A stretch of 64,000 nt of DNA, from contig NC_090599.1 in the NCBI RefSeq assembly GCF_000497125.1, positions 1,054,001 to 1,118,000 on the forward strand, read 5' to 3'. Below the pieces are notes generated by a model. That model was not told the origin of the DNA. It searched no databases and worked only from the letters and a program-made list of their open reading frames with translations. Shown here one piece after another: positions 1 to 52,634 of this stretch. This DNA is from Spironucleus salmonicida (taxonomy: Eukaryota). Position numbers and translations under genes: made by a program. Each line of letters begins with the position of its first letter. The first letter of the stretch is position 1.

Positions 1-207
1 GGCGATGTTATGCTGCAGGATGGACCGGGTGGCCTTCCCCTTCGGACCAGAGACCGCGGCAACCTTGGCCTTGAGGGCCCTCGCCACGATTTCCTGCACC
101 TCGACCTGGCGCAGGTCGTTCGTACAATGCTGGACACTCTCCCCAGCGCGCAGCAGGTGCTCGTGCACGGCCTGCTGGATGGCTGCCTGTGAGGCCTGGA
201 TTGACAT
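1..207 (-). CDS. 5' part of ~100-aa hypothetical protein (runs off window start); inverted copy of 16298-16600
   Basis: ATG at 207 (minus) preceded by CCACTCCTAA; MSIQASQAAIQQAVHEHLLR... nearly identical to 16298-16600. Confidence 0.7.
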   Translation of the reverse strand, partial: MSIQASQAAIQQAVHEHLLRAGESVQHCTNDLRQVEVQEIVARALKAKVAAVSGPKGKATRSILQHNIA

Positions 208-510
208 TTAGGAGTGGTAGGCTGGAAAGGGCAGGACGGGACCATGCCGGCAATAAGAATTGCCGCCGAATAGCACTCCTGGCGCCTCTACTGCAGATAA
301 ACTATTACACGGAGGGCGGAGAACCAATTCCACGGGTCCCGCTCCGCCTGTCCCCCCGCTCCGCAAGAACCCCCTTCAGTTCGGCCCAAAATTGGTTGTA
401 TCACCTCTTGCACGCTCCTTACACCGCTCCTTCCTGCAGAAATTTCGCCCGCCAAACCGAACGAGCAGGCGCCGCAGAAGCGGCTCTAACCGCCTTCAAG
501 CTCGCACAAA
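1..510. repeat. Inverted repeat IR0 left arm (partner ~15995-16504; continues beyond window)
   Basis: Reverse-complement identity with a few substitutions; paired coordinates sum to 16505. Confidence 0.9.
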
Positions 511-916
511 TCTAAGACGCACATAGGTTAGATTTGATACAAACTTCAACATTGTGAGAGCCTTTTGAGTGCCTCGAATCTAGCGGATAAATTTGGCAGT
601 TCGTTGATTGGAACTGCTGCCTTATATCATTAAATTCTGGAGTTCGAGGAATAAACGGCAGGAAACGGAGCGCACGGGCTAGAATTTCACGAATTTGGTG
701 TGAAATAAGTGCGATAACAAGAAAATATGTGTTTGCCAGAGCAGTTCATTCAGGGTTGCGAAAACTTGGCAAAACAATGCAGGACCAAATAATAGTCCAA
801 AAGTTGATATAGACAATAAAAGATATATAATAATACGGTTATAATTATATCCAATTTTTTACATATTTCTCTTTAAATTTATATAATAATAATATTAATC
901 ATCTACCTTTCATTAA

Positions 917-1615
917 ATGGACTTACCGCTTTAGGCCACAATTGAAAAACTCAGGGATACGGTTGCGTTAATGCCGCCAATACCAGCTCATTTTCTTGAT
1001 TAAAATTTACCTCTGACAGATTTTAAGCTTATTTCTGATCAGTGCGTAGTCTTTACATTTAAAAATTTCTAAATTGCATATCTTGAAGAAATGAAATAAT
1101 TTTACTTCAATAGAATAGGAGATGCTTTTGTAACAGTATTCAAGGATTTTTATGATGATGAAAAGCTCAAAAAACTAGTCGAAATTTCAAGGTAAAAATT
1201 CAACTTCTTTTTCGAAACGGAATTCAAAGCTATGACAGTTGGAATCAATAGTCAAAAGGACTATAAGGATCTGGAGCTCATGAAGTCATCTTAACATGCT
1301 AAAATACCCATGTTTCTCGAAAGTGAAGTTCTGATCACCAAAAATAACGTTGCAAAATAGTTCCAGTAAGTTGTCACAGTTACGTGTGAGAATTCTGAAG
1401 GGTTGTGCCAAGTTACGTTCGTCTAGCAAACTAAGAAATGCAATGCGATTCCGCTAAAATGCATCCCAGACGGTACGTATGTTGCGGTCTTGTACGGCCC
1501 GCAGGACCTCGGTAGCGTCTCGGAATCAGGTGAGGGCCTTGGAATCATTTTCTGTGAGGATGGCCTGGCAGGCTTCATTTTCGGCGAAAGCTCGGCGTTT
1601 AAAGTGATCCAATGA
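917..1615 (+). CDS. Hypothetical protein, 232 aa (code 6)
   Basis: ATG..TGA open when TAA/TAG=Gln: MDLPLQATIEKLRDTVALMPP...GFIFGESSAFKVIQ. Confidence 0.7.
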
Positions 1616-1619
1616 GTCA

Positions 1620-2099
1620 TCATTCGTCGCTGTGGCTAAAGCTGCGGCTGTGGAGTCCACTGAGCTCCCCAGCTAGCATCTATTTTTCGTGTATTTCACC
1701 CATAAGATGCTGTATTTCGGTCTGGTATGCTCCCTTCTTCTCATCGAGTGTCTGTTGCTTCCTGATGATCAACTCCTCGATCTTGGCAATTTGGCTTGCC
1801 TCGCGCTACTTCTGATCGGATAGTAGGAACTGGGCCTCGGAGATCTCCTGGATCAGCTTCTACTCGATCATCTGGGTGTCCTCTTGGTTATAGATCGAAA
1901 GTGAGAGGTCAGTCAGCTTCTTCTTTAGGAACGAAATTTCCGTTTTTGCAGTCTCATGAATTCTGTCGATTTCAGCCTGAATTTGAGACAGTTTCAATGT
2001 TTTTTGGGCCAACTACTATGTATGGGTATTGAGTGAGTCCTAGTACTGCGAGTATATAGTGTTCAGTTACGCTGCCAGCTCTGGGTAAAACTTGGACAT
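1620..2099 (-). CDS. Coiled-coil hypothetical protein, 159 aa
   Basis: MSKFYPELAAQLNTIYSQYQ...HSDE*; Q/E/K-rich heptads; convergent with 917-1615. Confidence 0.7.
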
Positions 2100-2681
2100 G
2101 ATTTAGGGGAGTGCAAAAAGCATAATAATATTATATATAATATTAAGAAAAACTAAAATTTTGTATAATAATAATTAAGAATAGGAAAGAGTAATTTAAG
2201 ATAAAACTGATAATAAATATTTATATTATTTTATGCATAATGGTTTTTGATGTATACGTTTATGGTATTAATGTAAGATTGTGATTAAATAATAGGCACC
2301 ATGTGTTGTTAAATTATAATAATCATAATCAGTAGATACATCAAAAATATCCGCTCCTAGGAATGAAATATACAAAATTCTTTCAAATTTGAATGTAATA
2401 TACTATTGTCAATAGAGTTCATATAATAAACTTCCAAATATTTTAGGGACTTTAATGCAAATTATTATATTTTAATTATAGAAAAACCAACCTACGTATC
2501 CTGTAAATCAATGATCCGAGCAATCAAGGTTTAGATATTCAGTCTATCTAGTTATAAGCCTATCAAATTCTCAAGTTATAGAAAGTTAAACCGCGTCTTG
2601 ACCTGTGCCGCAATTCTCTAATTGGGGAACTGCATATTATATATTATTCTGGACCGCAGGTATCATTCCGCAAAATTAGCA

Positions 2682-3455
2682 ATGTCGAAAGCAAAGAAGC
2701 CAGAGCAGACCCTGAAGGAGCGCGTGGGCAGCCTGTACCTAGCGTACCGCGCCAGTAGCCTCCCCACCTAGCTGAAGGACCTGCAGGACCACTTTGCGCT
2801 GGACTCGGAGACGAACTCCGCGCACCAGGCCCAGCTCGACTTCCACAACCTCACGCTATCGCGGGCCAAGGCGCTGGACCTGCCCTATCCGGTGTTCTTC
2901 ATCGTGCACCGGCTCGTGCTGATCTATTTCGCGACGCCGATCCCCACCGAGGACCTCCGCGCCCTCACGCTCACGGTGTTCAGCCTACTCACGCGCCAGC
3001 ACGACGCGGAGTACCCGGTGTTCGACGACTTCGAGGAGGCCGACGACCAGCACGCGCGGGTCTCGGCCAAGGAGGCGACGCTGGCCCCGGAAATTTTCAG
3101 CTCGGTCTCGCTGGTAGGAAAGCAGAGCGACGACCCCAAGAAGCCGCTGCGGCGGACGCTGGTCAGACTTGGCGACGCGCAGGCGAGCCAGTGCCTGCAG
3201 CTGTGTGGCCAGATGCTCGCCCAGCGCGCGCTGTTCCGGGCCAGCCTGGGCGCCAACCAGACGCGGATCTGCGGGGTGCAGACAGTGCGGGCGCCGTGCG
3301 TGCCCTTCTGCAAGGACCTGTCGCCCCTGTCCCAGGGGTTCAAGTGGAGGGCGGTGGACAGGCTGGAGCTGGTCGTGCGGGAGGCGGTCAAGGAGAAGGC
3401 GGCGAGGATGTGGGAGGAGCTGCAGGAAGCGGCCCGGCCGGCCAGCGTGAAGTGA
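2682..3455 (+). CDS. Putative flagellar central-pair C1a-32/CABCOCO1-like protein, 257 aa
   Basis: One in-frame TAG read as Gln; LDFHNLTL..AK, PLSQG and a C-terminal coiled coil resemble the C1a-32 family by eye only; ends AAGTGA. Confidence 0.5.
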
Positions 3456-3634
3456 GTCGGGTATCCCATTTTATCCATCCTTTGCTTTAGCGTATGCCAC
3501 GCCGCAGCGCTAGTTAGTAGCGCGTGCGCCGTCTGCGAAAACGCGCATACTTAGTATTAAATAGCATATACTGTAGAATTCGTAGAATTTTCGTCTATGG
3601 GCTGGGGTATATAATAATTAGTGCTGCATCAGAA

Positions 3635-5215
3635 ATGCTCGTGCTCCTGGCTGATGCCGTGCACTGCTTTCAGGACAACGCGGTCCTCCAGGGCAACTCG
3701 CAGTCCAAGGTGCTGACCCTGGTGCTCACCCCCGCCCCCGAAAACGACCCGCTGTGCGTGGCATCCAACAACCGCGAGTCCCTGTGCAAGCTGCAGTACC
3801 TCGACGCCGCCGGTGCGGTGCAGACGATCGACCAGTCGTTCATATACATCGACAGCGCCGCCGTCGCCATAAGATTCAACCTATCCTCCGCAGCAGCGAA
3901 ATACACCCTCATCTCGGCGCAGTCCCTCCTCTCCTACATCGCGCTCATCGTGGGCTCGCTGGAGTCCCCCGGGGCCGTCCAGACCATCCAGCACACGCAG
4001 ATGAACGCGACCAACTGCTGGGACGACCTGGTGCTCCGCTACAACCGGTCGGCGGGCCACGAGTTCCTCCAGATGGACGGCACGCCGCTCGACTGCCAGA
4101 TCACGGCACCCGTGGTCAAATTCGAGTACTTCGCCGAGGAGCGGTGGAGATCCTTCGGGGTCCAGGGCGTAAGCGGGGAGGCTGGCTACTACGACGCCAC
4201 CAAGACGTTCAACCACTCCGAGACGCTCCACTACAAGCAAACGCTGGCGGGACTGACGGATGCCGCCGCGATCGAGGTGTTCAAGTACTTCTTCGTGGCG
4301 TTTCAGAACAACCGGTCCATCGAGACGCGCATCCACATCGTGACCACCATTGGCTCCCTGGACCAGATCATCCTCGCGGCGCCGCTGCTCGTGCTCTCGA
4401 TGGGCAGTCCGTGCTACTCCGCCCTCTAGCCCCTGGGATACGCCTCTGTCCTCCAGGTCACCGCCTTCAGCCACAACGTCGAGTTCCTCGACCACACCGC
4501 GTGCAGCTCCAAGACGACCAGCTTCGGGAACCAGATGCGGATCATCACGGACACTTTCAACTTTTCGTCGAGCCGGGAAATCAACAGCCTGCCGCACTTT
4601 CGGAAACGTTCGGGGTTTAGCATCACCTTCGACGCGCCCATCGCCAACTACTCGCAGCTGACGTCCGGGGTCATGATAAGCTACCTAACGTACTATGACG
4701 AGAATGACGTCATTCTGGACGAGGAGTCCGTGCTCCTCGCCCTGGCCCTGAGTTGCTTCCAGAACATCCAGGCCTTCTTCCAGCGGGACCGGCTCTGCGT
4801 GCAGGTCCAAACCTTCCCCACGGCGCAGTGCATCGCTCGCGGCAGCTCCTAGCTGCAGTACGTGCTCGGAATACAGCCCGGCACCTTCCTGACGCGCCAG
4901 GTCGTCTTCGTCTTCAGCATAAACTACGTGTACAACGGCTCGTTGCAGTGCACCTCGACGTACGGTACCAACGACTATGCCGAGAACTTGGCGGGCACGG
5001 TCGCAGTTAAGACGGCCCTGTACTAGAAAATGGTAGCAAACCACACCACTTTATACAACTTTTTGCAGTCGACCCACGAGTATATTCGGCCTACCGTTCT
5101 GCTCCTTTCGGATATGTCCCCAATTTACACCTACTTCGGGATTATTATCTCTGGCGTTCTGCTCCTCACCGCGGTCGGCGTAGGCGTACTTGTCCATATG
5201 CAGCGCAGAGGCTGA
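3635..5215 (+). CDS. Single-pass transmembrane protein, 526 aa
   Basis: Standard-code ORFs 3524, 4535 and 5030 are one frame joined through TAG; hydrophobic N-terminus MLVLLADAVHC and C-terminal TM YFGIIISGVLLLTAVGVGVLV. Confidence 0.85.
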
Positions 5216-7254
5216 GCTTATTTTTATTATTTTACAAAATAAATAATATTATTATTATACATAATATATACGATTTCCTTCTAAACTAATTTCTCACGTA
5301 CACTCTGCCACTAGCTGCCCTTAACAAGCTAATTCCGCACCGCTACCTGTGCAAAAAGAAGCGGAAAACTGCAAAATTTGCCTCCAAACCGCACGTGTTG
5401 CCCCGCGAATGCTCAGCAGGCGGCCGGGACCTCAAACTAGCGCTTCACACTACCTTTGCAGCTTAGGATCAAAGTCAGCTTTTCGTATTCTTATTGGCCG
5501 TGGGAGCCCGGAATGCGCAAAATTCGTCCCAAACTGATATAACGATGGAGCGAAAACTTTGAAAATTTCATATGCAATATGGCCTCTACAAGCTCTCAAG
5601 AAAAAGTTAAGCGCCGCAATTAAAGGATTCGAGTAGTTTGGAACACTGCAAATGTAAGAATTTATCGTGACTCTAACCGGAAAAATACCACTAGAAATGC
5701 TAAACCTAGGAAGTGATATAATGTATGAATTTCGCGCGAGCCGTTTCTAGATAATTTTCAAAAATAGCTTTCTGCCGAAAAATGGATCCCTCATGCAGGA
5801 GCGTTCCGTTTTTGTATTATGCTCGTGAAAATGCTGTTCTTGCAGCTGCGGCTCGCCTCATAGCAATTTCACGTGCAGTAGGCACCAAAAACGCTCGCAA
5901 AAAGTAAAACTGACTGATTACAGACACATAAATACTGCATTCAGGGAACGAATAGATCGAAAATGATATAATAAGATTGAGGAATCGTGAAATTTTTGTA
6001 TAATTTAATTGGTAATGAGTCAGCTACAATAAATATACGGTACCTCCAAATAGGAAAAAGATAAATTGCTTCATTTCCTTTAACTATTTTGGCATAATGA
6101 TGTGTTTATGGTGGTTGATGTACTGGTTTAATTTACTTGAACATAAATTCTAAGATCTAATTAACCTGCCTTTAGCAGTTAAGTATTGTTTGCTCGGGCC
6201 TGGAACTCCGATTAAGTTATAATTACTAGATAAACATAAATAACATTATAAGGATGTGTGCACTGCTTAAATAGCGTTTTTCCTGTAAATGAAAAATATT
6301 TTTCAAATTTTCTGGTGCGTATAGAGACTCAATTACAAAATTGCAAGTAATTACAAGTATACACACTGGGAATGCTACAAGTTTGTAGTGAAAATATGAA
6401 ATTTTTAGCGTCAAAATCCATAATAATTAATTTATACTTCTATTTTAATTCCTAGAATAACGAAAATATATTTACTGAGGCAACTATAACATGAAAAAAA
6501 TTTAAACACTGCTCCTTTGCACGATAATGCAATTATTTGAAAATCTGTTTTATCAGTTCATTATATAAATATTTTTCGGTTATTATCAAATATCGATTTT
6601 GATATTTCATTAATTATTAGATAGTAATATGCATTTTTTAATAGATAGCAAGAACTCGGTATATGATTATTAAGCGTTATATCACTATAAAATTAAACTA
6701 CTAATACAAAGTTCCTGATACCGAAATCGATTTCTCACCAACCAGAGGAAACAAAGTTTTGAACCGTGCGGGAACTTACTAATTTGGATGCAGAAAGGTA
6801 TAATATTTACAATGTGATTCAAACTTTAACTTAATAAACTATAAGCTTAGCACATTTACTTCACCATCTACTATTAACTATTTTCTTAGTTCATGTAGAG
6901 ATGAAATACAAATGAATAACATAATAATTCCTTATAATTTAACATTAAAATAAGATTTTTGTCATATCAAGAATACTAGTATCACGTTATTCTAGCCTAA
7001 AATCAAGTGTTAGGTTATATTAAATGATTTAATTCGAAATTTTTAAATAGGATGGAAAATTTAGTAAAAATTCGAGGCAGCCGATTACAACTATTTTTTA
7101 ACTATATCAATCAAGTAATTAAACGCAGGATATCTGTAGTAGTTTCATCCATAAGCAGTGGAATCGCGTCTTGACCTGTGCCACAATTCTCTAATTGGGG
7201 AACTGCATATTATATATTATTCTGGACCGCAGGTATCATTCCGCAAAATTAGCA

Positions 7255-8028
7255 ATGTCGAAAGCAAAGAAGCCAGAGCAGACCCTGAAGGAGCGCGTGG
7301 GCAGCCTGTACCTAGCGTACCGCGCCAGTAGCCTCCCCACCTAGCTGAAGGACCTGCAGGACCACTTTGCGCTGGACTCGGAGACGAACTCCGCGCACCA
7401 GGCCCAGCTCGACTTCCACAACCTCACGCTATCGCGGGCCAAGGCGCTGGACCTGCCCTATCCGGTGTTCTTCATCGTGCACCGGCTCGTGCTGATCTAT
7501 TTCGCGACGCCGATCCCCACCGAGGACCTCCGCGCCCTCACGCTCACGGTGTTCAGCCTACTCACGCGCCAGCACGACGCGGAGTACCCGGTGTTCGACG
7601 ACTTCGAGGAGGCCGACGACCAGCACGCGCGGGTCTCGGCCAAGGAGGCGACGCTGGCCCCGGAAATTTTCAGCTCGGTCTCGCTGGTAGGAAAGCAGAG
7701 CGACGACCCCAAGAAGCCGCTGCGGCGGACGCTGGTCAGACTTGGCGACGCGCAGGCGAGCCAGTGCCTGCAGCTGTGTGGCCAGATGCTCGCCCAGCGC
7801 GCGCTGTTCCGGGCCAGCCTGGGCGCCAACCAGACGCGGATCTGCGGGGTGCAGACAGTGCGGGCGCCGTGCGTGCCCTTCTGCAAGGACCTGTCGCCCC
7901 TGTCCCAGGGGTTCAAGTGGAGGGCGGTGGACAGGCTGGAGCTGGTCGTGCGGGAGGCGGTCAAGGAGAAGGCGGCGAGGATGTGGGAGGAGCTGCAGGA
8001 AGCGGCCCGGCCGGCCAGCGTGAAGTGA
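7255..8028 (+). CDS. Second copy of C1a-32-like protein
   Basis: Matches 2682-3455. Confidence 0.5.
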
Positions 8029-8207
8029 GTCGGGTATCCCATTTTATCCATCCTTTGCTTTAGCGTATGCCACGCCGCAGCGCTAGTTAGTAGCGCGTGC
8101 GCCGTCTGCGAAAACGCGCATACTTAGTATTAAATAGCATATACTGTAGAATTCGTAGAATTTTCGTCTATGGGCTGGGGTATATAATAATTAGTGCTGC
8201 ATCAGAA

Positions 8208-9788
8208 ATGCTCGTGCTCCTGGCTGATGCCGTGCACTGCTTTCAGGACAACGCGGTCCTCCAGGGCAACTCGCAGTCCAAGGTGCTGACCCTGGTGCTC
8301 ACCCCCGCCCCCGAAAACGACCCGCTGTGCGTGGCATCCAACAACCGCGAGTCCCTGTGCAAGCTGCAGTACCTCGACGCCGCCGGTGCGGTGCAGACGA
8401 TCGACCAGTCGTTCATATACATCGACAGCGCCGCCGTCGCCATAAGATTCAACCTATCCTCCGCAGCAGCGAAATACACCCTCATCTCGGCGCAGTCCCT
8501 CCTCTCCTACATCGCGCTCATCGTGGGCTCGCTGGAGTCCCCCGGGGCCGTCCAGACCATCCAGCACACGCAGATGAACGCGACCAACTGCTGGGACGAC
8601 CTGGTGCTCCGCTACAACCGGTCGGCGGGCCACGAGTTCCTCCAGATGGACGGCACGCCGCTCGACTGCCAGATCACGGCACCCGTGGTCAAATTCGAGT
8701 ACTTCGCCGAGGAGCGGTGGAGATCCTTCGGGGTCCAGGGCGTAAGCGGGGAGGCTGGCTACTACGACGCCACCAAGACGTTCAACCACTCCGAGACGCT
8801 CCACTACAAGCAAACGCTGGCGGGACTGACGGATGCCGCCGCGATCGAGGTGTTCAAGTACTTCTTCGTGGCGTTTCAGAACAACCGGTCCATCGAGACG
8901 CGCATCCACATCGTGACCACCATTGGCTCCCTGGACCAGATCATCCTCGCGGCGCCGCTGCTCGTGCTCTCGATGGGCAGTCCGTGCTACTCCGCCCTCT
9001 AGCCCCTGGGATACGCCTCTGTCCTCCAGGTCACCGCCTTCAGCCACAACGTCGAGTTCCTCGACCACACCGCGTGCAGCTCCAAGACGACCAGCTTCGG
9101 GAACCAGATGCGGATCATCACGGACACTTTCAACTTTTCGTCGAGCCGGGAAATCAACAGCCTGCCGCACTTTCGGAAACGTTCGGGGTTTAGCATCACC
9201 TTCGACGCGCCCATCGCCAACTACTCGCAGCTGACGTCCGGGGTCATGATAAGCTACCTAACGTACTATGACGAGAATGACGTCATTCTGGACGAGGAGT
9301 CCGTGCTCCTCGCCCTGGCCCTGAGTTGCTTCCAGAACATCCAGGCCTTCTTCCAGCGGGACCGGCTCTGCGTGCAGGTCCAAACCTTCCCCACGGCGCA
9401 GTGCATCGCTCGCGGCAGCTCCTAGCTGCAGTACGTGCTCGGAATACAGCCCGGCACCTTCCTGACGCGCCAGGTCGTCTTCGTCTTCAGCATAAACTAC
9501 GTGTACAACGGCTCGTTGCAGTGCACCTCGACGTACGGTACCAACGACTATGCCGAGAACTTGGCGGGCACGGTCGCAGTTAAGACGGCCCTGTACTAGA
9601 AAATGGTAGCAAACCACACCACTTTATACAACTTTTTGCAGTCGACCCACGAGTATATTCGGCCTACCGTTCTGCTCCTTTCGGATATGTCCCCAATTTA
9701 CACCTACTTCGGGATTATTATCTCTGGCGTTCTGCTCCTCACCGCGGTCGGCGTAGGCGTACTTGTCCATATGCAGCGCAGAGGCTGA
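8208..9788 (+). CDS. Second copy of transmembrane protein
   Basis: Matches 3635-5215. Confidence 0.85.
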
Positions 9789-9823
9789 GCTTATTTTATT
9801 TCTTTAATTAATTTAATTTCACC

Positions 9824-10972: not shown

Positions 10973-11070
10973 TTTGCGGATTCTGGAGTGGCTTCTAAAT
11001 ACTTCACTTATTTTGTATAATAAGTTTAGCTTACCTGATTTTGAAAATTATAATTAATAAAATAAAAATT

Positions 11071-19414: not shown

Positions 19415-20917
<1,503 letters not shown>

Positions 20918-38458: not shown

Positions 38459-38488
38459 CCCTTCGCATTGCATTCTGCTCCCTTCCGA

Positions 38489-39301: not shown

Positions 39302-39310
39302 GGGAGGCGT

Positions 39311-41520: not shown

Positions 41521-44514
41521 TTTATGAAGAAGTGGCAACGTGATATTATTATAACTTCAATATAACATAAGTATTTAGTTTCTAGCTGTTTCTTAGTTTC
41601 TGGAAAATGTAGTGTGACTTTATAAATACTAATAATCGATCCATTTAAATATTCTATAACGATAATTAGATAATTAGAAAACAAAATGCTCATTTATTAC
41701 TATAGAGTAGCAATATTTTAGTTTATAATGGGAAACTAATTTATTAGTTTAGACGCAGTGTAGAAGTATTTTTGTTGTCAGTTATAGAACTCAAAATATT
41801 TGCAAAATACAATATAAATATGTTATTTTTTCTAAGATATAAAAATTATATGTGATGAGGTTATTCAATTATATAACAAGATTATCATAAAGAGAATATA
41901 TAGTATGAATTATATATAAATACTAAACAAAATGGAATCTTTAAAATACATCAGCAATTCTAGGATCTACAAGGCCCTCGTGATAATTCAGGATATTATT
42001 TTGCTGCTACCAATACAAAGCATTTACCATATTCCCATAAGCCTAACATCACATCTCATGGTTATTCCTATAAAACAATTAATCGTCAACAATGAGGTTA
42101 TTTGCACTATTTTGTATCCTAATCATTAAGTTGAACTTACCAAAGTAATTTTCAGCTAATATATATTTAGTTATAGACCAAGAAATCATGTAGCTCTCTA
42201 GATTAAATATGTCATAACCGGCATGAAGGTTTCATATTATATTCTTATTGGCATTGTTTGACCAAAATATTAAACCTTGTTATTATATCTTCGCAGTTGC
42301 ATGACTAAACCGAGAAGCATTATTTTAGTATAATCGACACTTTATAAGTTTTAACAAGCAGCAGCTCTTATTTTAAGTACCTTTTACGAAATAATGTCAT
42401 TCATGATATTTTAAATCAGTAGTAGTTTTTCATTAGGATTAGTAGCCTAGCATCATCTATACTATCTAAAAATAAGGTATTATCGGTCTATGCTACCAAC
42501 CTGCCATACTCATACGATTTCCAGATAAGTTTTAACAATTTACATTTACTTGTGTAAAATGCACAAGTATGTATAACAAATTAATAACTTCGATATTCAT
42601 ATTGAACTTTTACCAACAGTCTCATCCCACATGAAGGCACTCTCATAGCGTCTTACTTAGCTCCGGACGACTCCAGGGCTTTCCAATTGTGCGAGCAGCT
42701 TTCCGGCCGACTAGCCAGAGCCCAGGTAGAGCTTGGGCAAAAATGGGTTAAAAAATGAAGTTTGTTAAGATCACCAATTTGTATTGATTTCAATGATCTG
42801 AATTCGGGGGAAAAATTATCTAAATATATATATATTAATATCACTCCATAAGTTTTCCCAAAATTAATGGATCGTTGTTGCAAAAAGGTCAAAACAAGAA
42901 AGTGCGCTTTTCATAACTCGTTTGTATAAATACCTAGATTTTTTTTCGATTCGTCCGGGTTCTATATTAACATATATCTATTTATATAGGAAAAAAACAG
43001 GGTCCCTTCCACAAATACTAAACAGCCAAATTCAAATCTTTTTTGGACCCAAATGCATCCTTCTATTTAATATATAATAGAGGTACTGTGGAAGGGAAAC
43101 CCGTTTTTCACTTTTTATTCAATAATACAAACACAACCTATTCAATATATATATATTATCATAGTAAAATTAAAAAAATCACTTTTTTGTGTAACACTTT
43201 TGGGCCCAGATAATATATTATAACAATGCAGAATCACTATAAGAAAAAAACTCCAAAAGGTTATGTTTAGGAAAGGAAAAACCTATACATCTACAGTTGG
43301 CTAAAAATCCGGAAGTTACCAAACCTATTATAATAGTAAATTATCTATAATCATAAAAATTAAGCGTTTTTTCTGGGCAAACTACATATTATTATATATT
43401 TATATACACTTATTCTAAAACGTTGATTCTAAAAATAGATCAGTTTTGTAGATTTCTAAATAGTTTTTAGCATCACCAAACACTATATTATTCATATATA
43501 ATGCTATTATTACGATTTTAAAAAAGGAATTGAAACTATCATTTAATATTGTAAATATATATTACTTCCTTTTTCTACGAAATTAGTTTTTGTATATAAT
43601 ATATATTTTGAGTGTTTTTATAACTTATTTAAATCATATAATATTTATATATTAAAATGCTGTTTAAAAACAGTTACCTAATATTTATTAATAATATTGT
43701 GATAAATTTACATTATTATTAAGCATATAATAGTATAAGTCTATTTTTATGACAAGAGACAAGAAACCAGCTACTGGTTTAAATTATTTATTATTATAAA
43801 TAGATAATATTTAATTGCCTTGATTTTACTTTTTATACACCACTCTAAATTGTATAGAATTTTTAGAAAGATAATATTGATATAAAATATATAATATTCA
43901 ATATAATATTAAATCAAAGAAATCATATATATAGTTTTTAAATATAATATATACATATATTAAAATATATAAAATCATTATAACAAATAAAATAATTTTC
44001 ATAAAATATATATTATATATATGTTAATAAATATATCTATAGATTTTTATATTTTAAAAAATATCGTAAGGGGGGTACTCATTGATTTTTTAATAAAAAT
44101 ATTTTTTGAAAAAATATTATCAAATTTTCTCAAGAACTGTAAGGTAAAATTAGAATAATTAAATTTATACTAAATATATGTTGATATATTATTATATTCA
44201 TTTTTATCCAAAAAACTGAATTCTATAAAAACGATATTTTTCATGAGTACTATATATGTTAATATACATAGTTTCTCAAATAATGAAAAGGAATTGTAAC
44301 AGAATTATATTAAATATATATTCATAAAATACTAAAAATTGAATAAAAATTGAGTATATTTAAAAAATAATGTTAATATATTCCTAGTATATTAACTTAT
44401 TTTGACGAAAAATCATAGAAAAAATAATATGATTTAAATAATCTATTTCAAATATTGATTTCTTTCCATTTGTGTATCTCACCATACAACTATTTAGCAT
44501 ATAAATAGTAGTAT

Positions 44515-45594
44515 ATGAAGTTTTCTCTTCCAAATTTGATGTTTTCACAATATTTCAGATTTTGCCGGACCCCCGACGAGAAGACGGAGCTGGTGCGCCT
44601 CGTGTGCGACGCGCGCCTGGAGAGCGGCAGCGTGGACTGGGCGCGCCTCCAGGCCCGCTACCAGGGGCGGACCGTGCTGCAGGTCCAGCAGACCTACCAG
44701 AACATGACGCGGAAGGACAGCCTGGGCCGCAGCGTTCCTCACGCGCGCGGAGCAGATCCACGTCGTGGCGCAGAAGTTCCCCCGCGCCCGCGCCTTCGAC
44801 TACCGCCGCCACCTGGTGCCGCTCGCCGAGCTGGAGCGGCTGGGATCCTACCGCGAGGACGCCGGCAACGCGGCCCGGAACCTCAACGTCAGCTCCAACC
44901 TCGCCCCGGAGCACCTGAAGTACTTCCGCGAGGTCTTCTTCGGCGTGCAGCGCGAGGGGCTCGTCGCCCAGACCGAGCGCGCGATCCAGGACTTCGTGCG
45001 GTCCCAGCTGGCGGAGCGCGGCCTGGACCCCGGGCGCTACGACACCGGGGGCTTCGTGCCGGCGCTCGAGGCCTTCCTGGCGGCGTTCCACGACGCGCGG
45101 TCCGTGTTCCGCAACGCCGTCGACCCCTTCATCGCGCCCGCGGAGGCCGAGCAGGACACGCACACCTACAGCGGGCTCGAGCACTCCCAGTCCATGCACC
45201 GGCAGCGCCTCGAGCGGGCGGAGCTGGCGCGGGAGGGCGTGCGCGCCGCGGAGCGCTCCATCGGCGAGGAGCAGCGGGCGCGCTTCCTGCAGCTGCTCCG
45301 GCGCTCCTACTTCGGCCAGCGCCGCATCCCCATGGCCGCGGTGGTCCGGGGCATGCACCAGCTGGGCGTGTCGGGGGCGGAGCGCATCGTGGAGGCGCTG
45401 GTGGCCGCGCACGGGGGCGTGTTCGGCACGGAGGCCGCGAGCCTGGTGGTGCAGTGGCGGCGCTTCGGGGAGGTGGACCAGTGAGGGAGGCGTTCACTCG
45501 AGCACGTGCCGCAGCAGCCGCAGCAGCTCCTGGGGCGGGCCCAGCTCCCCCGGGTCGGAGCCCTCCCGCCGCACCTGCCGCACCTTGGCGATGA
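44515..45594 (+). other. Chimeric ORF (AT-rich start + Myb repeat 1 + out-of-frame body of the 270-aa gene)
   Basis: 44567-44731 matches 32539-32703; junction microhomology GCCGCA. Confidence 0.6.
44726..45484 (+). pseudogene. 5'-truncated copy of the 270-aa gene
   Basis: Lacks the first 18 codons including ATG. Confidence 0.7.
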
Positions 45595-45700
45595 TGTCCT
45601 GCATGGCGAAGGCGGGCAGGCTCTGCCGCAGGCGCAGCCAGTCGATGGGGCCGCCCACGCACGCCCCCTGCACCGCTAGCAGGTGCTTGGCCTACCACAC
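45494..45700 (-). pseudogene. 3' fragment of two-repeat Myb gene
   Basis: Copy of 39311-39517. Confidence 0.7.
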
Positions 45701-45981
45701 TCAGGCATAGCGCTAGAAGCTAGAGCCTATTTCGAAGTATCGCAGCGATTGCCGGCTCCCGTTCGTTAAATAAGCTTGCTGAATGTGAAATTATCAGCCC
45801 AGCCAATTTTGAATTTTGCATACCTTGCGCTCCAGACCTGCCCCTGCACATTCAGCGCCTACCACCCATCCACAATTTTTCATTCTCACTCTGCCGCCAC
45901 TTCCCCACCCAGTTCATCCTGCATCTTAAACCTCCTAGCTCATCACACACCAATAAACTTTACCAGATATACCATATATTA

Positions 45982-47703
45982 TCACTTCGAGATTTTGCTC
46001 CAAATGCTGTCGTCGTCTACCTAAGGCTAGATATTCTCCTTTTTCACCTCCAAATCGCCCTAGATCGAACTCTACGCCTTCCGCTTCCTCGCGACCGCAA
46101 ATGCTATAGCGCCACCAATGAGCCCTACAAGCAGAACCAACCCAGCAACGATCCCGGCTACTGACCCACCGCTCATTCTCTATACCTGCTGCGCGCAGAG
46201 ACCGTCGACCATTTCGGCCCCGTCTTGGCATATCTAGCAAACGCTTTAATCTTAGCAGCTTTTGCAGTTCTGCCCGCAGCTTTCGCACATCCCTTTGCTA
46301 CTGAAATATCCTTCAGCGCACTAAAGACATGTGCTGGAGTCTGTGCAAGTAGCGCAGCCTTTTTGGCAGCTTGTGCAGGTATTTCCTGTAGACTTAATTT
46401 CGCAAAATAACCCGGCACCGCACTACTTCGACTCTGTGCAAATTTGCTTAGTGCACGTTTACTCATGCAACCTGTACCCATCTATGCAGGCGGTGCAGGA
46501 CTTGATATCGGAGCAGGCGGAGCAGCCCTCAGCGCAGGTCTCGCACGTGCTTATCCAGGGGTAATACAAGCAGAATTTACCACTTGGGCAGGGCTTGGCG
46601 CTGGAGCACTCGCGTGGCCCCTATTTTTGACAAATATCTTAATCCAGCGTATATCCAACGTCGCACCTCGTGCACTTTGTCGCACTTTCGCAGGCCCAAC
46701 ACCCGTCGGAGCAGCTGGTGCATACGCCGTTTTTGTTGAAGTAGAAACCATAGCACTCGGTGCATTGCTTAGACGAAGCGCAGGTTTAGCAGTGTTCCGC
46801 GCAGGACGCGCACTTCCCGTCTTCTGCCACATAGGGTGCAGTGCATTTTATACAATTTCCGGAAATGTCAGCTTCGACGCAGTTTTTGGATAAGCTGACG
46901 CATTTGTTACCAGTAGGATCAATACCGCAGAATTTATTGTCAGTGCATTTATTCACGTTGTTGCATTCGTTCAATATGCATTTACCGCTTTGAATGTCGT
47001 ACCTCTCCTTGCAGAGGCGGCACATACTGTCGGTTTTGCAGTCCATGCAGTTATCACCGCACGAAACGCACATGCCGTTCTTCAAGAAGTTTCCGTCCTG
47101 GCAAGAGATGCAGGAGCCTTCGGCTGTGCATTTGCCGCAGTTACTAGGGCACGACGTGCAATTGCCGTCCTTTAATACAAATGAATATCTGCATGACGTA
47201 CAAACTCCCTTATTGCAGGTCTTACAATTTGCTGGACAAGTATTACAAATCTTTCCGTCCAGTTCGAAGCCATCGGAGCAAGCAGAACAATTATTTGAGT
47301 TCGTACATTTAACGCAGCCGGTGCCGCATTTATAGCAGTTAGGGCCACCTTCAGTAAAAAATCCTGTGCGGCAAATATCGCATTCATAGTGTTTGCTGCA
47401 GGAAATACAGTTATCTATGCACTTATAACAGTAACGTTCTGTAAGTTAATATCCTGAAAGGCAACTAGTGCATTCATAATTGTTATTACATGTTCGGCAT
47501 CCGGCTTGGCAAAGCTTGCAAATCCTATCTTAAAGGAAATAGCCCTAATTGCAGGTAGTGCATTGAGATAGTGAATTTGGAAGACAGTTGGCACAGTTAT
47601 AAGTCTTGCAACGAATACACATTTTCTATTGACCACTTGGTGCATAATCTGGGCATACAGTACCGTTGGGGCATCTGTTGTCATTGCAGATGTATGATGA
47701 CAT
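45982..47703 (-). CDS. Second copy of cysteine-rich membrane protein
   Basis: Copy of 39799-41520 at offset 6183. Confidence 0.9.
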
Positions 47704-50697
47704 TTTATGAAGAAGTGGCAACGTGATATTATTATAACTTCAATATAACATAAGTATTTAGTTTCTAGCTGTTTCTTAGTTTCTGGAAAATGTAGTGTGA
47801 CTTTATAAATACTAATAATCGATCCATTTAAATATTCTATAACGATAATTAGATAATTAGAAAACAAAATGCTCATTTATTACTATAGAGTAGCAATATT
47901 TTAGTTTATAATGGGAAACTAATTTATTAGTTTAGACGCAGTGTAGAAGTATTTTTGTTGTCAGTTATAGAACTCAAAATATTTGCAAAATACAATATAA
48001 ATATGTTATTTTTTCTAAGATATAAAAATTATATGTGATGAGGTTATTCAATTATATAACAAGATTATCATAAAGAGAATATATAGTATGAATTATATAT
48101 AAATACTAAACAAAATGGAATCTTTAAAATACATCAGCAATTCTAGGATCTACAAGGCCCTCGTGATAATTCAGGATATTATTTTGCTGCTACCAATACA
48201 AAGCATTTACCATATTCCCATAAGCCTAACATCACATCTCATGGTTATTCCTATAAAACAATTAATCGTCAACAATGAGGTTATTTGCACTATTTTGTAT
48301 CCTAATCATTAAGTTGAACTTACCAAAGTAATTTTCAGCTAATATATATTTAGTTATAGACCAAGAAATCATGTAGCTCTCTAGATTAAATATGTCATAA
48401 CCGGCATGAAGGTTTCATATTATATTCTTATTGGCATTGTTTGACCAAAATATTAAACCTTGTTATTATATCTTCGCAGTTGCATGACTAAACCGAGAAG
48501 CATTATTTTAGTATAATCGACACTTTATAAGTTTTAACAAGCAGCAGCTCTTATTTTAAGTACCTTTTACGAAATAATGTCATTCATGATATTTTAAATC
48601 AGTAGTAGTTTTTCATTAGGATTAGTAGCCTAGCATCATCTATACTATCTAAAAATAAGGTATTATCGGTCTATGCTACCAACCTGCCATACTCATACGA
48701 TTTCCAGATAAGTTTTAACAATTTACATTTACTTGTGTAAAATGCACAAGTATGTATAACAAATTAATAACTTCGATATTCATATTGAACTTTTACCAAC
48801 AGTCTCATCCCACATGAAGGCACTCTCATAGCGTCTTACTTAGCTCCGGACGACTCCAGGGCTTTCCAATTGTGCGAGCAGCTTTCCGGCCGACTAGCCA
48901 GAGCCCAGGTAGAGCTTGGGCAAAAATGGGTTAAAAAATGAAGTTTGTTAAGATCACCAATTTGTATTGATTTCAATGATCTGAATTCGGGGGAAAAATT
49001 ATCTAAATATATATATATTAATATCACTCCATAAGTTTTCCCAAAATTAATGGATCGTTGTTGCAAAAAGGTCAAAACAAGAAAGTGCGCTTTTCATAAC
49101 TCGTTTGTATAAATACCTAGATTTTTTTTCGATTCGTCCGGGTTCTATATTAACATATATCTATTTATATAGGAAAAAAACAGGGTCCCTTCCACAAATA
49201 CTAAACAGCCAAATTCAAATCTTTTTTGGACCCAAATGCATCCTTCTATTTAATATATAATAGAGGTACTGTGGAAGGGAAACCCGTTTTTCACTTTTTA
49301 TTCAATAATACAAACACAACCTATTCAATATATATATATTATCATAGTAAAATTAAAAAAATCACTTTTTTGTGTAACACTTTTGGGCCCAGATAATATA
49401 TTATAACAATGCAGAATCACTATAAGAAAAAAACTCCAAAAGGTTATGTTTAGGAAAGGAAAAACCTATACATCTACAGTTGGCTAAAAATCCGGAAGTT
49501 ACCAAACCTATTATAATAGTAAATTATCTATAATCATAAAAATTAAGCGTTTTTTCTGGGCAAACTACATATTATTATATATTTATATACACTTATTCTA
49601 AAACGTTGATTCTAAAAATAGATCAGTTTTGTAGATTTCTAAATAGTTTTTAGCATCACCAAACACTATATTATTCATATATAATGCTATTATTACGATT
49701 TTAAAAAAGGAATTGAAACTATCATTTAATATTGTAAATATATATTACTTCCTTTTTCTACGAAATTAGTTTTTGTATATAATATATATTTTGAGTGTTT
49801 TTATAACTTATTTAAATCATATAATATTTATATATTAAAATGCTGTTTAAAAACAGTTACCTAATATTTATTAATAATATTGTGATAAATTTACATTATT
49901 ATTAAGCATATAATAGTATAAGTCTATTTTTATGACAAGAGACAAGAAACCAGCTACTGGTTTAAATTATTTATTATTATAAATAGATAATATTTAATTG
50001 CCTTGATTTTACTTTTTATACACCACTCTAAATTGTATAGAATTTTTAGAAAGATAATATTGATATAAAATATATAATATTCAATATAATATTAAATCAA
50101 AGAAATCATATATATAGTTTTTAAATATAATATATACATATATTAAAATATATAAAATCATTATAACAAATAAAATAATTTTCATAAAATATATATTATA
50201 TATATGTTAATAAATATATCTATAGATTTTTATATTTTAAAAAATATCGTAAGGGGGGTACTCATTGATTTTTTAATAAAAATATTTTTTGAAAAAATAT
50301 TATCAAATTTTCTCAAGAACTGTAAGGTAAAATTAGAATAATTAAATTTATACTAAATATATGTTGATATATTATTATATTCATTTTTATCCAAAAAACT
50401 GAATTCTATAAAAACGATATTTTTCATGAGTACTATATATGTTAATATACATAGTTTCTCAAATAATGAAAAGGAATTGTAACAGAATTATATTAAATAT
50501 ATATTCATAAAATACTAAAAATTGAATAAAAATTGAGTATATTTAAAAAATAATGTTAATATATTCCTAGTATATTAACTTATTTTGACGAAAAATCATA
50601 GAAAAAATAATATGATTTAAATAATCTATTTCAAATATTGATTTCTTTCCATTTGTGTATCTCACCATACAACTATTTAGCATATAAATAGTAGTAT

Positions 50698-51777
50698 ATG
50701 AAGTTTTCTCTTCCAAATTTGATGTTTTCACAATATTTCAGATTTTGCCGGACCCCCGACGAGAAGACGGAGCTGGTGCGCCTCGTGTGCGACGCGCGCC
50801 TGGAGAGCGGCAGCGTGGACTGGGCGCGCCTCCAGGCCCGCTACCAGGGGCGGACCGTGCTGCAGGTCCAGCAGACCTACCAGAACATGACGCGGAAGGA
50901 CAGCCTGGGCCGCAGCGTTCCTCACGCGCGCGGAGCAGATCCACGTCGTGGCGCAGAAGTTCCCCCGCGCCCGCGCCTTCGACTACCGCCGCCACCTGGT
51001 GCCGCTCGCCGAGCTGGAGCGGCTGGGATCCTACCGCGAGGACGCCGGCAACGCGGCCCGGAACCTCAACGTCAGCTCCAACCTCGCCCCGGAGCACCTG
51101 AAGTACTTCCGCGAGGTCTTCTTCGGCGTGCAGCGCGAGGGGCTCGTCGCCCAGACCGAGCGCGCGATCCAGGACTTCGTGCGGTCCCAGCTGGCGGAGC
51201 GCGGCCTGGACCCCGGGCGCTACGACACCGGGGGCTTCGTGCCGGCGCTCGAGGCCTTCCTGGCGGCGTTCCACGACGCGCGGTCCGTGTTCCGCAACGC
51301 CGTCGACCCCTTCATCGCGCCCGCGGAGGCCGAGCAGGACACGCACACCTACAGCGGGCTCGAGCACTCCCAGTCCATGCACCGGCAGCGCCTCGAGCGG
51401 GCGGAGCTGGCGCGGGAGGGCGTGCGCGCCGCGGAGCGCTCCATCGGCGAGGAGCAGCGGGCGCGCTTCCTGCAGCTGCTCCGGCGCTCCTACTTCGGCC
51501 AGCGCCGCATCCCCATGGCCGCGGTGGTCCGGGGCATGCACCAGCTGGGCGTGTCGGGGGCGGAGCGCATCGTGGAGGCGCTGGTGGCCGCGCACGGGGG
51601 CGTGTTCGGCACGGAGGCCGCGAGCCTGGTGGTGCAGTGGCGGCGCTTCGGGGAGGTGGACCAGTGAGGGAGGCGTTCACTCGAGCACGTGCCGCAGCAG
51701 CCGCAGCAGCTCCTGGGGCGGGCCCAGCTCCCCCGGGTCGGAGCCCTCCCGCCGCACCTGCCGCACCTTGGCGATGA
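50698..51777 (+). other. Second copy of chimeric ORF
   Basis: Same translation as 44515-45594. Confidence 0.6.
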
Positions 51778-52634
51778 TGTCCTGCATGGCGAAGGCGGGC
51801 AGGCTCTGCCGCAGGCGCAGCCAGTCGATGGGGCCGCCCACGCACGCCCCCTGCACCGCCAGCAGGTGCTTGGCCTTCCACACGCGGCACGTGCGGCCCA
51901 GGCTGTCCTTCCGCGTCATGTTCTGGTAGGTCTGCTGGACCTGCAGCACGGTCCGCCCCGGGTAGCGGGCCTGGAGGCGCGCCCAGTCCACGCTGCCGCT
52001 CTCCAGGCGCGCATCGCACACGAGGCGCACCAGCTCCGTCTTCTCGTCGGGGGTCCACTAGCTCATTCCTGGCGCGGCGGGTATTCGGCCGAATGCGGGA
52101 TGTCCCCCAGCCGTAGAAAGGGCCTGCCGATATCGGGGGGTATTCGCGCAGCGGACCTCTTTCGGAAAGTTGGTACTCTGCCAACGGGCCCCCGCCCGAC
52201 ACATTCCTCCCTTCCGCGCATGGAGTGTGGAAGGTGGCGGCGTGCGGCGGGCTGGGCCGTGCGAAGCCGCCCGCTCAGACTGCACCGGGGGGCAGCCGCA
52301 CCGGGGAGCTCAGGCCCGCGCGCCGGGACGCCAGGAACTGCCGGCTCTTGCACACGGCCGCGGGGTGCCGCCGTGGGGGCGAGAGCGGGGATCGGAGGGG
52401 CGAGGCAGGGCGCAGCGGGACGGGAGCGGTCTCGGGCCGGGACGCGAAGAGGTTCACGTACCGCGGGAGCTGCTGCTTCGGGACCTCCGGCGGCACCTCG
52501 AACACGTAGCGCCGCTTGTAGGTGGAGAAGTCCGCGCGGCCCTCCTGGCGCGGTGGCGGCGGGGTCTTCTGGACGTAGGCGCCCGCCTGGCAGCCGCGCT
52601 CCAGCCGGTACACGTACTCGAACTGCAGCTGCGA
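50909..52634. repeat. Inverted repeat IR4 right arm
   Basis: Reverse complement of 31961-33686. Confidence 0.9.
51677..52066 (-). CDS. Two-repeat Myb-like protein (copy 2)
   Basis: Inverted copy of 32529-32918. Confidence 0.8.

What the first reader, a model, noticed from the sequence alone, without database searches (positions are those of the whole stretch)
1..52634. Chain of overlapping inverted repeats enclosing single-copy genes: a potential flip-flop chromosome segment
Seen: five inverted-repeat pairs (IR0 1-510/15995-16504, IR1 16542-19420/21018-23896, IR2 22542-25225/27785-30504, IR3 32712-34184/38045-39517, IR4 31961-33686/50909-52634). Arms are shared or adjacent between pairs, and the spacers hold genes such as DYRK, RPS8/RPL27A and the carboxypeptidase. 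I recognised no transposase, RT or recombinase gene. Inference: the cassettes arise by template switching, and recombination between arms would invert spacers without losing DNA, giving structural isoforms.
Basis: partly seen in the sequence, partly recalled or inferred. Interest (0 to 1): 0.75.

Follow-up and report, generated by a model that had tools for sequence, protein, structure and literature searches.

The report
GC-rich palindrome chain in a diplomonad
A fish-parasite chromosome carries a chain of real mirror-image gene duplications that keep copying each other and have become extremely GC-rich as a result, which likely explains this genome's long-puzzling GC islands, whereas the proposed flipping of the DNA between the copies remains unproven.

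Summary
The five inverted repeats are real (98.3-99.9% identical), the three spacers searched are single-copy, and most junctions tested recur in short-read contigs. The organism is a hexamitine diplomonad, very likely Spironucleus salmonicida (inferred). Three single genes cross an arm edge, and synonymous GC jumps from 0.25/0.51/0.63 outside to 0.94/0.98/0.93 inside. An arm Myb-like gene (GC3s 0.92) has a solo paralogue at 0.18. Two markers in four arm copies show all four combinations, which requires copying between arms or a repeated deletion. In 800 kb sampled blind, 18 such pairs occur; 17 are GC-richer than their flanks. Best reading: serial inverted duplications kept identical by GC-biased arm-to-arm gene conversion, as in primate palindromes but far stronger; this would answer a puzzle left open in 2007. 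Flip-flop was not testable, would be coding-silent, and 3 of 3 testable cassettes keep the parental orientation; direct-oriented copies mean recombination can also delete DNA. This scan reached the conversion reading before on other DNA of this genome.

The parts
1..516 (-). IR0 left arm (window part; extends to -2792; inverted copy of A0-A1-A2)
   Evidence: 98.8% over 3,310 bp; inner and outer junctions seen as loose ends in contigs
2589..9800 (+). Direct duplication, two 2.64-kb copies (2589-5228, 7162-9800), two genes each, GC3s 0.92 and 0.86
9824..15771 (.). IR0 spacer genes: NDK7 (9824-10972 -, GC3s 0.20), tRNA-Glu, WD40 protein (11718-13982 +, 0.26), PP2C (14953-15771 +, 0.38)
15989..19420 (+). 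Parental segment A0-A1-A2-A3: IR0 right arm (to 19291) and IR1 left arm (from 16542); carries a 100-aa gene (16298-16600, GC3s 0.91), Myb-like gene (17034-17309, 0.92), 110-aa gene (17426-17758, 0.98), tRNA-Leu, tRNA-Glu and the stop codon of the spacer kinase
19415..20917 (-). IR1 spacer: single-copy CMGC/DYRK-type kinase, GC3s 0.14
21018..23896 (-). IR1 right arm (derived copy; truncates the 100-aa gene at 23896); its 22542-23896 part is also the outer IR2 left arm
23897..25225 (+). Segment B, inner part of IR2 left arm: tRNA-Lys, 215-aa gene (GC3s 0.89), 3' part of gene A
24719..25987 (-). Gene A (422 aa) crossing the IR2 inner edge at 25225: GC3s 153/165 in arm, 155/245 outside, falling to 0.24 at its 5' end
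26099..27608 (-). IR2 spacer ribosomal protein genes RPS8 and RPL27A (GC3s 0.39 each), single-copy
27785..30504 (-). IR2 right arm (derived copy of A1'-B); holds the 27-bp element Q (30384-30410) shared only with IR0 left arm
31961..34184 (+). Left arm a-b-c-d of the IR3/IR4 palindrome (derived copy; truncates genes B and C), GC 0.72-0.73
34185..38044 (.). IR3 spacer: M14 carboxypeptidase (35964-37568 -) and 5' part of gene B; single-copy
37643..38458 (+). Gene B (271 aa) crossing the IR3 inner edge at 38045: GC3s 131/133 in arm, 66/129 outside
38045..39524 (-). Right arm part d'-c' (IR3 right arm)
39525..51889 (.). Two tandem 6,183-bp units [U-b-c'] inserted in the right arm; U is a dispersed repeat with a VSP-domain cysteine-rich membrane protein gene (39799-41520 -), 86-95% like loci on C8, C10 and elsewhere on C4
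44720..44735 (.). Strand-switch junction forward b to reverse c with 6-bp microhomology (repeated at 50903-50918)
   Evidence: not among the joints listed
50903..52634 (-). Right arm part c'-b'-a' (IR4 right arm)
   Evidence: outer junction seen as loose end in X1, X2, X4
52275..52931 (-). Gene C (218 aa) crossing the IR4 outer edge at 52634: GC3s 112/119 in arm, 24/95 outside
63144..63410 (-). Solo paralogue of the arm Myb-like gene, GC3s 0.18; internal control

Best explanation
The segment is a chain of palindrome-like inverted duplications in a hexamitine diplomonad. Each new arm is an inverted copy of 1.5-3.3 kb of neighbouring DNA placed 1.6-17 kb away, probably by template switching during homology-based repair (inferred; one junction shows 6-bp microhomology), and later copies re-copy parts of earlier arms, which makes the overlaps (IR1 left is parental; IR1 right, then IR2 right derive from it; order inferred from junctions). 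The arms then repair each other by mostly non-crossover gene conversion (supported by marker mosaicism, end-clustered mismatches and identity falling with distance). Mismatch resolution favours G/C, so over long times arm DNA climbs from about 20% to 90-98% GC at synonymous sites and 55-69% between genes, with edges that cut through genes (pattern shown; cause inferred). The same architecture is genome-wide and, with tandem arrays, accounts for most GC islands. Spacer inversion is a possible, coding-silent by-product, not a switch.
For: Within-gene GC3s steps at arm edges in 3 of 3 straddling genes: 0.94 vs 0.25 (p 2e-27), 0.98 vs 0.51 (p 2e-21), 0.93 vs 0.63 (p 2e-12); the gene models are exact entries of the public protein collection. 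Arm vs solo Myb paralogue, 56 aligned codons: arm G/C where solo A/T at 67 sites, the reverse at 2 (57% aa identity). Non-coding DNA follows: 7 of 9 arm intergenic stretches 0.54-0.69, 10 of 10 single-copy ones 0.12-0.27, so not codon selection. Four-gamete pattern in the four A1 copies: junction type groups IR0L+IR1L vs IR1R+IR2R, element Q groups IR0L+IR2R vs IR1L+IR1R. Arm mismatches cluster within 200 bp of ends: 19 of 41 in 16 pairs of at least 99.5% identity vs 14.4% expected; identity falls with spacer length, rho -0.72 over 32 pairs. Blind 800 kb: 18 inverted pairs, arms 10.9% of DNA, GC 0.449 vs 0.276-0.305 unique; arm above own flank in 17 of 18; 19 of 30 windows with GC of at least 0.60 lie in arms. 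Metamonads lack NHEJ and parasitic diplomonads lack a-EJ, leaving homologous recombination for break repair (PMC8516963, passages). Same signature in primate X palindromes (PMC8981503, abstract).
Against: No outgroup genome, so substitutions are not polarised directly; the orphan-copy test gave only 83 vs 54 (p 0.016, sites not independent). In one C1 comparison the inverted-arm copy was the AT-richer paralogue (63 vs 11 sites) against a direct-pair copy. 6 of 18 blind pairs have arm GC of 0.40 or less, and the inner part of IR1 is only 0.27-0.39; I read these as young, which is untested. 19 of 125 blind windows with GC of at least 0.55 had no local duplicate, and 65 of 125 were tandem or direct repeats, so orientation is not what matters. 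GC3s stays at 0.64-0.88 for 250-500 bp outside the edge in genes A and B, so edges are steps on a slope. Pairs share arms and are not independent. The Q pattern could be two identical deletions over a 9-bp repeat. With only two copies exchanging, a 70% bias gives GC of about 0.37, not 0.97 (toy model).
Confidence: 0.72

Rival explanations
1. Active flip-flop: crossovers between arms invert spacers often enough that a culture holds both orientations. Compatible with the best explanation as an add-on.
For: Arms of 1.5-3.3 kb at over 99% identity are in the range that mediates recurrent inversion in humans (1.6-24 kb repeats; PMC3961182, abstract). On C1 a paralogous locus (545284-552609) joins the left flank of a palindrome to the right end of its spacer, the arrangement of the opposite orientation. 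An earlier, unchecked scan note reports a flipped unit elsewhere in this genome (e1-7274280).
Against: 3 of 3 testable cassettes keep both parental junctions on one arm (chance 1 in 8). No tyrosine recombinase match in G000 (PF00589, 0 candidates, control 14 of 14). A flip changes no coding sequence. The C1 case can also be two separate conversion tracts. Direct-oriented copies make crossover hazardous here.
Confidence: 0.3
2. Reverse causation: the DNA was GC-rich first (local mutation or replication environment) and GC-rich DNA is simply prone to recent inverted duplication; high identity reflects youth.
For: Arms differ by only 0.07-1.2%; most edges show no decayed homology beyond them; intermediate GC3s extends outside two arms; some GC-rich windows lack a local partner.
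Against: GC3s steps coincide with the arm edge inside single genes; blind metaplot drops from 0.497 to 0.272 across the edge; near-background-GC arms exist, so AT-rich DNA duplicates too; marker mosaicism; it leaves the GC islands unexplained.
Confidence: 0.12
3. The cassettes are scars of inversions with staggered breaks, which leave inverted duplications at both breakpoints (model recalled from Drosophila; lead from e1-7142109).
For: Geometry arm-spacer-arm; the C1 locus has one ancestral junction on each arm.
Against: That model puts one parental junction on each arm; 3 of 3 testable cassettes in the window have both on one arm, which would need a further flip each.
Confidence: 0.1
4. Assembly or fold-back artefact.
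For: All four runs are one sample and two may be the source of the assembly; the b|c' junction was not listed; depth over the GC-richest arm was about single-copy in X1 and X2. The second [U-b-c'] unit is identical to the first in U and is unverified.
Against: IR2 spacer contig bridges both arms by 36 letters in 4 of 4 runs; five other junctions appear as loose ends; arm-specific alleles appear in contigs; arm contigs are about 2-3.5 times deeper in X3 and X4. An artefact cannot create GC3s steps at arm edges.
Confidence: 0.03
5. Arms are terminal inverted repeats of a fold-back or other mobile element.
For: Long inverted repeats around cargo genes; a dispersed repeat (U) sits in one arm.
Against: Arm sequences occur only locally, differ between cassettes, consist of ordinary host genes and tRNAs, and cut genes at arbitrary points; no transposase domain in 27 of 27 proteins.
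Confidence: 0.02

Closest known systems
Primate X/Y palindromes with GC-biased arm-to-arm gene conversion (Jackson et al. 2021, PMC8981503; abstract read)
   Same: Inverted arms above 99% identity around a unique spacer; arm GC above flanks; conversion as the homogenising force.
   Different: Here arms are 0.5-12 kb, occur about once per 45 kb on ordinary chromosomes of a protist, overlap in chains, cut through genes, and the GC shift is extreme (GC3s about 0.2 to 0.9-0.98). Cross-species age and polarised bias are not shown here.
Identical inverted vsp gene pairs of Giardia intestinalis (Adam et al. 2010, PMC2996952; passages) and G. muris (PMC7641422; passages)
   Same: Same protist group; head-to-head or tail-to-tail identical copies 2-4 kb apart with abrupt divergence points; IR1-IR3 spacers are 1.6-3.9 kb.
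   Different: Those were described for vsp genes and read as recent duplications; here arms carry non-surface genes and tRNAs, spacers hold single-copy housekeeping genes, and a GC step marks the arms.
GC-rich regions of Spironucleus salmonicida (Andersson 2007 PMC1805757 and Roxstrom-Lindquist 2010 PMC2874811, passages; Xu 2022 PMC9509377, parts 1-2 of 3)
   Same: Sharp 30%-to-70% GC shifts, genes with GC3s near 1, duplicated regions at 44.7% vs 30.7% GC (19.2% of the genome).
   Different: The 2007 paper says neither mutation nor selection easily explains them; the 2022 paper links GC to duplicated regions and invokes conversion only for surface-protein expansion. In the text seen, neither describes inverted orientation, arm-edge steps or biased conversion.
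Recurrent inversions at inverted repeats in humans (Aguado 2014, PMC3961182; abstract) and chloroplast single-copy flip-flop (recalled)
   Same: Geometry that permits loss-free inversion of the spacer.
   Different: Both orientations are demonstrated there; here only one is seen and it could not be tested.
DUP-TRP/INV-DUP and FoSTeS/MMBIR template-switch rearrangements (recalled, no paper read)
   Same: Inverted-repeat-guided strand switch with short microhomology and local copy gain (b|c' junction).
   Different: One informative junction only; the other new junctions lack a known ancestral allele.

Membership tests
Palindromes homogenised by GC-biased arm-to-arm conversion | Inverted arms above 99% identical around a unique spacer | tested here: met
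   (4 of 5 pairs above 99%; IR0 98.8%)
Palindromes homogenised by GC-biased arm-to-arm conversion | Arm GC above flanking single-copy DNA | tested here: met
   17 of 18 blind pairs; 3 of 3 within-gene steps
Palindromes homogenised by GC-biased arm-to-arm conversion | Non-reciprocal transfer between copies | tested here: met
   four-gamete pattern of junction type and element Q; a repeated identical deletion is the only alternative; end-clustered mismatches
Palindromes homogenised by GC-biased arm-to-arm conversion | Polarised excess of AT-to-GC replacements in arms | tested here: inconclusive
   Myb paralogues 67:2, orphan copies 83:54, but one C1 pair 11:63 the other way; no outgroup species
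Palindromes homogenised by GC-biased arm-to-arm conversion | Arms older than their divergence suggests (shared between species) | not testable with these tools
   no related genome held; no homologues found for genes B and C
Flip-flop / recurrent inversion at inverted repeats | Both spacer orientations present in a population | not testable with these tools
   only assembled short contigs available; none spans flank-arm-spacer
Flip-flop / recurrent inversion at inverted repeats | Trace of past net inversion (parental junctions on opposite arms) | tested here: inconclusive
   0 of 3 testable window cassettes; one compatible case on C1
Site-specific invertase switches (Hin, Fim, FLP; recalled) | Dedicated recombinase and short recombination sites | tested here: not met
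   no PF00589 match in G000; none in 27 window proteins; serine recombinases not searched genome-wide; arms are kilobases of host genes
Site-specific invertase switches (Hin, Fim, FLP; recalled) | Inversion changes a promoter or coding fusion | tested here: not met
   edge-crossing genes are rebuilt identically on either arm, apart from a few SNPs; expression not measured
Giardia-type identical inverted vsp pairs | Identical inverted copies 2-4 kb apart with abrupt edges | tested here: met
   IR1-IR3 spacers 1,597, 2,559 and 3,860 bp
Giardia-type identical inverted vsp pairs | Arms carry VSP genes | tested here: not met
   the only VSP-domain gene is in the inserted unit U, not in the arms
Fold-back / TIR transposons | Same termini at unlinked loci, transposase, target-site duplication | tested here: not met
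   arm copies local only; no transposase; no flanking duplication seen by eye in junction contexts

The most novel reading that the evidence does not exclude
This diplomonad genome is built around some 300 self-renewing palindromic cassettes that exist as mixed orientations within a clonal culture, and whose near-complete GC fixation needs either an almost absolute G/C repair preference (about 99% per event if two arms exchange) or an ordinary bias of about 67% pooled over all eight arm copies in both nuclei (toy model). In the second case the GC islands are a standing record of recombination between the two diplomonad nuclei.
Probability: 0.22. Interest if true: 0.82.

Novelty: new variant of a known kind. 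Interest (0 to 1): 0.55.

Why it matters
It offers a testable mechanism for the GC islands and GC3s-near-1 genes of S. salmonicida that a 2007 paper left unexplained, and shows concerted evolution rewriting half of a gene while the other half stays AT-rich. The size of the shift makes these arms a compact natural assay for repair bias in a lineage without NHEJ, and possibly for exchange between the two nuclei. Practically, GC-rich genes here need not be foreign or highly expressed, and short-read assemblies collapse about a tenth of the genome. If flipping is also real, synteny in this genome is locally fluid but with little expected effect on proteins.

Tried and rejected
Flip detection with contigs: impossible, no record spans flank-arm-spacer; one extra joint (30995 to 34263, X3 only, 21-letter side in AT-rich DNA) treated as noise. 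tRNA genes as breakpoint seeds: 7 of 17 within 200 bp of an edge on C4 (9% expected) but 0 of 9 in the blind blocks, and the C4 ones are copies of the same few genes; rejected as general. Decayed homology beyond arm edges: absent at most of the 64 edges (5 not scored); the strong scores mostly reflect indels or neighbouring repeats. The Q/P indel alone looked like conversion but fits a simple tree; it became informative only with the junction marker. A 207-aa ORF across the IR0 inner edge has no coding-like GC pattern and is not in the protein collection, so IR0 was dropped from the orientation test. Five rows of the gene table (110-aa gene, kinase, RPS8, RPL27A, RPL26) were out of frame and were replaced. 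Paired-vs-paired polarity (152:150) is symmetric by construction and uninformative. Homologue searches for genes B and C found no relatives. Rfam: only 8 tRNAs. Literature searches for a prior description: 'Spironucleus' plus 'biased gene conversion' gave 0 papers; the 2014 genome paper PMC3916229 has 0 hits for inverted, palindrom or gene conversion. Subscription papers and all supplements were not seen and could mention the pattern.

Full report
Observation. Self-BLAST and the repeat finder recover all five inverted pairs at the reported places, 98.3-99.9% identical. With flanking DNA, IR0 is a 3.3-kb pair (window -2792..516 against 15989..19291, 98.8%). IR3 and IR4 are parts of one 2.2-kb palindrome, a-b-c-d / spacer / d'-c'-b'-a', whose right arm is interrupted by two 6,183-bp units [U-b-c']. 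U carries a VSP-domain membrane protein gene and matches dispersed loci on C8, C10 and C4 at 86-95%. About 52% of the window is duplicated.

Organism. Genes read through TAA/TAG as Gln (table 6); the best named match of RPL27A is Trepomonas sp. PC1 at 57%; the genome is 14.5 Mb. This is a hexamitine diplomonad, very likely Spironucleus salmonicida (inference; earlier scan notes use the same name).

Is it real? Four DNA runs, all one sample and two flagged as a possible source, were laid on 15501-35500. A contig bridges both IR2 inner junctions by 36 letters in 4 of 4 runs. The IR1 spacer contig overlaps both arms by 30 letters in X1-X3, one short of the tool's bridging rule. The IR3 left junction is bridged in X3. 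Loose ends reproduce the IR0-left inner and outer junctions, the IR4 right junction, U|b and c|U, each in 2-3 of 4 runs. Arm-specific alleles appear. Arm contigs are about 2-3.5 times deeper than spacer contigs in X3 and X4, but only about 1-1.3 times over the GC-richest arm in X1 and X2; the tool warns that depth is no copy number. The b|c' junction was not listed and the second tandem unit is unverified. Spacers of IR1-IR3 are single-copy in G000.

The main signal. Arms are GC islands (0.53-0.74). Three annotated genes (5 of 10 queried sequences found, including these three) cross an arm edge. Synonymous GC is 112/119 inside vs 24/95 outside for gene C, 131/133 vs 66/129 for gene B and 153/165 vs 155/245 for gene A. 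In A and B it declines in steps to 0.24-0.32 further out, as if the arms were once longer (inference). Spacer genes have GC3s of 0.14-0.46, arm genes 0.89-0.99. The arm Myb-like gene has a solo paralogue 46 kb away, 57% identical over 56 aa; over those codons the arm copy has G/C against A/T at 67 sites and the reverse at 2. Intergenic DNA follows: 7 of 9 arm stretches are 0.54-0.69, the inner IR1 stretches 0.39 and 0.27, and 10 of 10 single-copy stretches 0.12-0.27. Translational selection cannot act on half a gene and on its spacers alike.

Evidence for copying between arms. Segment A1 exists four times. The junction that truncates the 100-aa gene groups IR1R with IR2R; the intact junction groups IR0L with IR1L; a 27-bp element between 9-bp repeats groups IR0L with IR2R. 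All four combinations exist, which needs non-reciprocal transfer or the same deletion twice. Over 25 pairs of at least 1 kb, 92 of 327 arm mismatches lie within 200 bp of an end (13.4% expected; one pair gives 27); in the 16 pairs of at least 99.5% identity, 19 of 41 (14.4% expected). Identity falls with spacer length (rho -0.72, 32 pairs). These pairs are not fully independent.

Genome-wide. In four 200-kb blocks taken at fixed coordinates (C1, C3, C5, C7), 18 local inverted pairs of at least 500 bp and 97% occur, against 3 separated direct pairs and 3 tandem arrays; extrapolated, about 330 (Poisson 190-520, clustering ignored). Arms make up 10.9% of the DNA at GC 0.449, direct and tandem repeats 5.6% at 0.545, unique DNA 0.276-0.305. 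GC drops from 0.497 to 0.272 across arm edges; 17 of 18 arms exceed their flanks. Of 125 windows at GC of at least 0.55, 36 are arms, 65 direct or tandem, 5 other repeats and 19 have no local partner; of 30 at 0.60 or more, 19 are arms. So GC tracks near-identical local duplication in general, with the extremes in inverted arms. The 264 kb around the window is denser (14 pairs, 23% of DNA, GC 0.577).

Results against. Six of 18 blind arms are at GC 0.40 or below and a 40-kb direct duplication on C4 is at 0.33-0.35. The orphan-copy polarity test is weak (83:54). On C1 an inverted-arm copy is AT-richer than its paralogue in a direct pair (63:11). No outgroup was available. A toy fixation model gives only about 0.37 GC for two copies with a 70% bias; 0.97 needs about 99% bias with two copies or 67% with eight, so the strength is unexplained.

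Origin and flipping. Using intact genes as markers of parental junctions: IR1 has both on the left arm (100-aa gene; kinase stop codon at 19415-19417), IR2 both on the left (gene A; A1-A2 continuity), IR3/IR4 both on the right (genes B and C); IR0 cannot be scored. Each cassette therefore looks like an inverted copy inserted near its parent with no net inversion (3 of 3; 1 in 8 by chance), which also disfavours staggered-break inversion. IR2 right contains the junction made by IR1 right, so the chain grew serially. The one junction with both donors known has a 6-bp microhomology, fitting template switching; metamonads lack NHEJ and rely on homologous recombination (PMC8516963, passages). No tyrosine recombinase was found. 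A flip would rebuild the same genes, so it would not be a switch. Crossover between direct copies (16542-17811 with 29114-30383; -2792..-37 with 21147-23896) would delete single-copy kinase and ribosomal protein genes, so the chain is not loss-free and non-crossover repair should dominate (inference). One C1 paralogue has the arrangement of the opposite orientation, which keeps occasional flips plausible. Both orientations in living cells could not be tested.

Comparison with the known. It works like primate palindromes under GC-biased conversion (PMC8981503, abstract) and has the geometry of Giardia's identical inverted vsp pairs (PMC2996952 and PMC7641422, passages). It is not a member of invertase switches or fold-back transposons. 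For this species, Andersson 2007 described 30-to-70% GC shifts and wrote that neither mutational nor selection scenarios easily explain them (PMC1805757, passages); S. barkhanus orthologues of the high-GC3s genes are lower (PMC2874811, passages); Xu 2022 reports 19.2% duplicated DNA at 44.7% vs 30.7% GC (PMC9509377, parts 1-2 of 3). I found no paper linking the islands to inverted arms or biased conversion (searches; find in PMC3916229); supplements and subscription papers were not seen. I stated this reading before opening the scan's notes; several earlier, unchecked notes on other pieces of this genome reach it too, which is not independent support.

Verdict. Observation confirmed; interpretation partly supported. 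New variant of a known kind, interest 0.55: a known process at unusual strength and density that makes a published open question testable. Flip-flop remains a possible silent side effect (about 0.3).

Noticed in passing
window 63144-63410 (-): AT-rich solo paralogue of the four-copy arm Myb-like gene; further Myb-like paralogues on C6 (1013987-1025926, 424865-430750) also sit in inverted pairs.
   Followed up: partly
window 39525-50749: A dispersed repeat with a VSP-domain cysteine-rich membrane protein gene is inserted in a palindrome arm and tandemly doubled; a possible route for surface-gene spread.
   Followed up: partly
window 27782-28291 (+): The truncated copy of gene A begins with an ATG three bases outside the arm, giving a 169-aa ORF; not in the protein collection.
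   Followed up: partly
window 53457-54788 and about 57600-59000: Genes or gene parts with no duplicate in the DNA held and intermediate GC (ESF1-like gene GC3s 0.59; 3' part of the 1,795-aa ORF near GC 0.50); candidates for former arms that lost their partner.
   Followed up: no
L035-L036 (C1:545284-552609) against L030-L031 (C1:495256-507933): Old paralogue with 99% patches alternating with 67-85% patches, joined as in the opposite orientation of the neighbouring palindrome.
   Followed up: partly
L061-L063 (C5:400141-429236): Duplicated block with two parts in direct and one in inverted orientation.
   Followed up: no
L071-L076 (C5:509899-552924): Three near-perfect tandem arrays (660, 582 and 618-bp units, GC 0.56-0.58), at least two inside long coiled-coil-like reading frames.
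   Followed up: no
window 63775 onward into L011-L012: 1,852-bp tandem array with six tRNA-Gly copies.
   Followed up: no
blind blocks C1, C3, C5, C7: Unique DNA inside spacers is AT-richer (0.276) than unique DNA outside cassettes (0.305); unexplained.
   Followed up: no
L001-L004 (C4:954001-984147): Palindrome with arms of at least 12 kb (99.3%) and a neighbouring 4.3-kb inverted pair at 90.6%, perhaps a cassette that has stopped converting.
   Followed up: no
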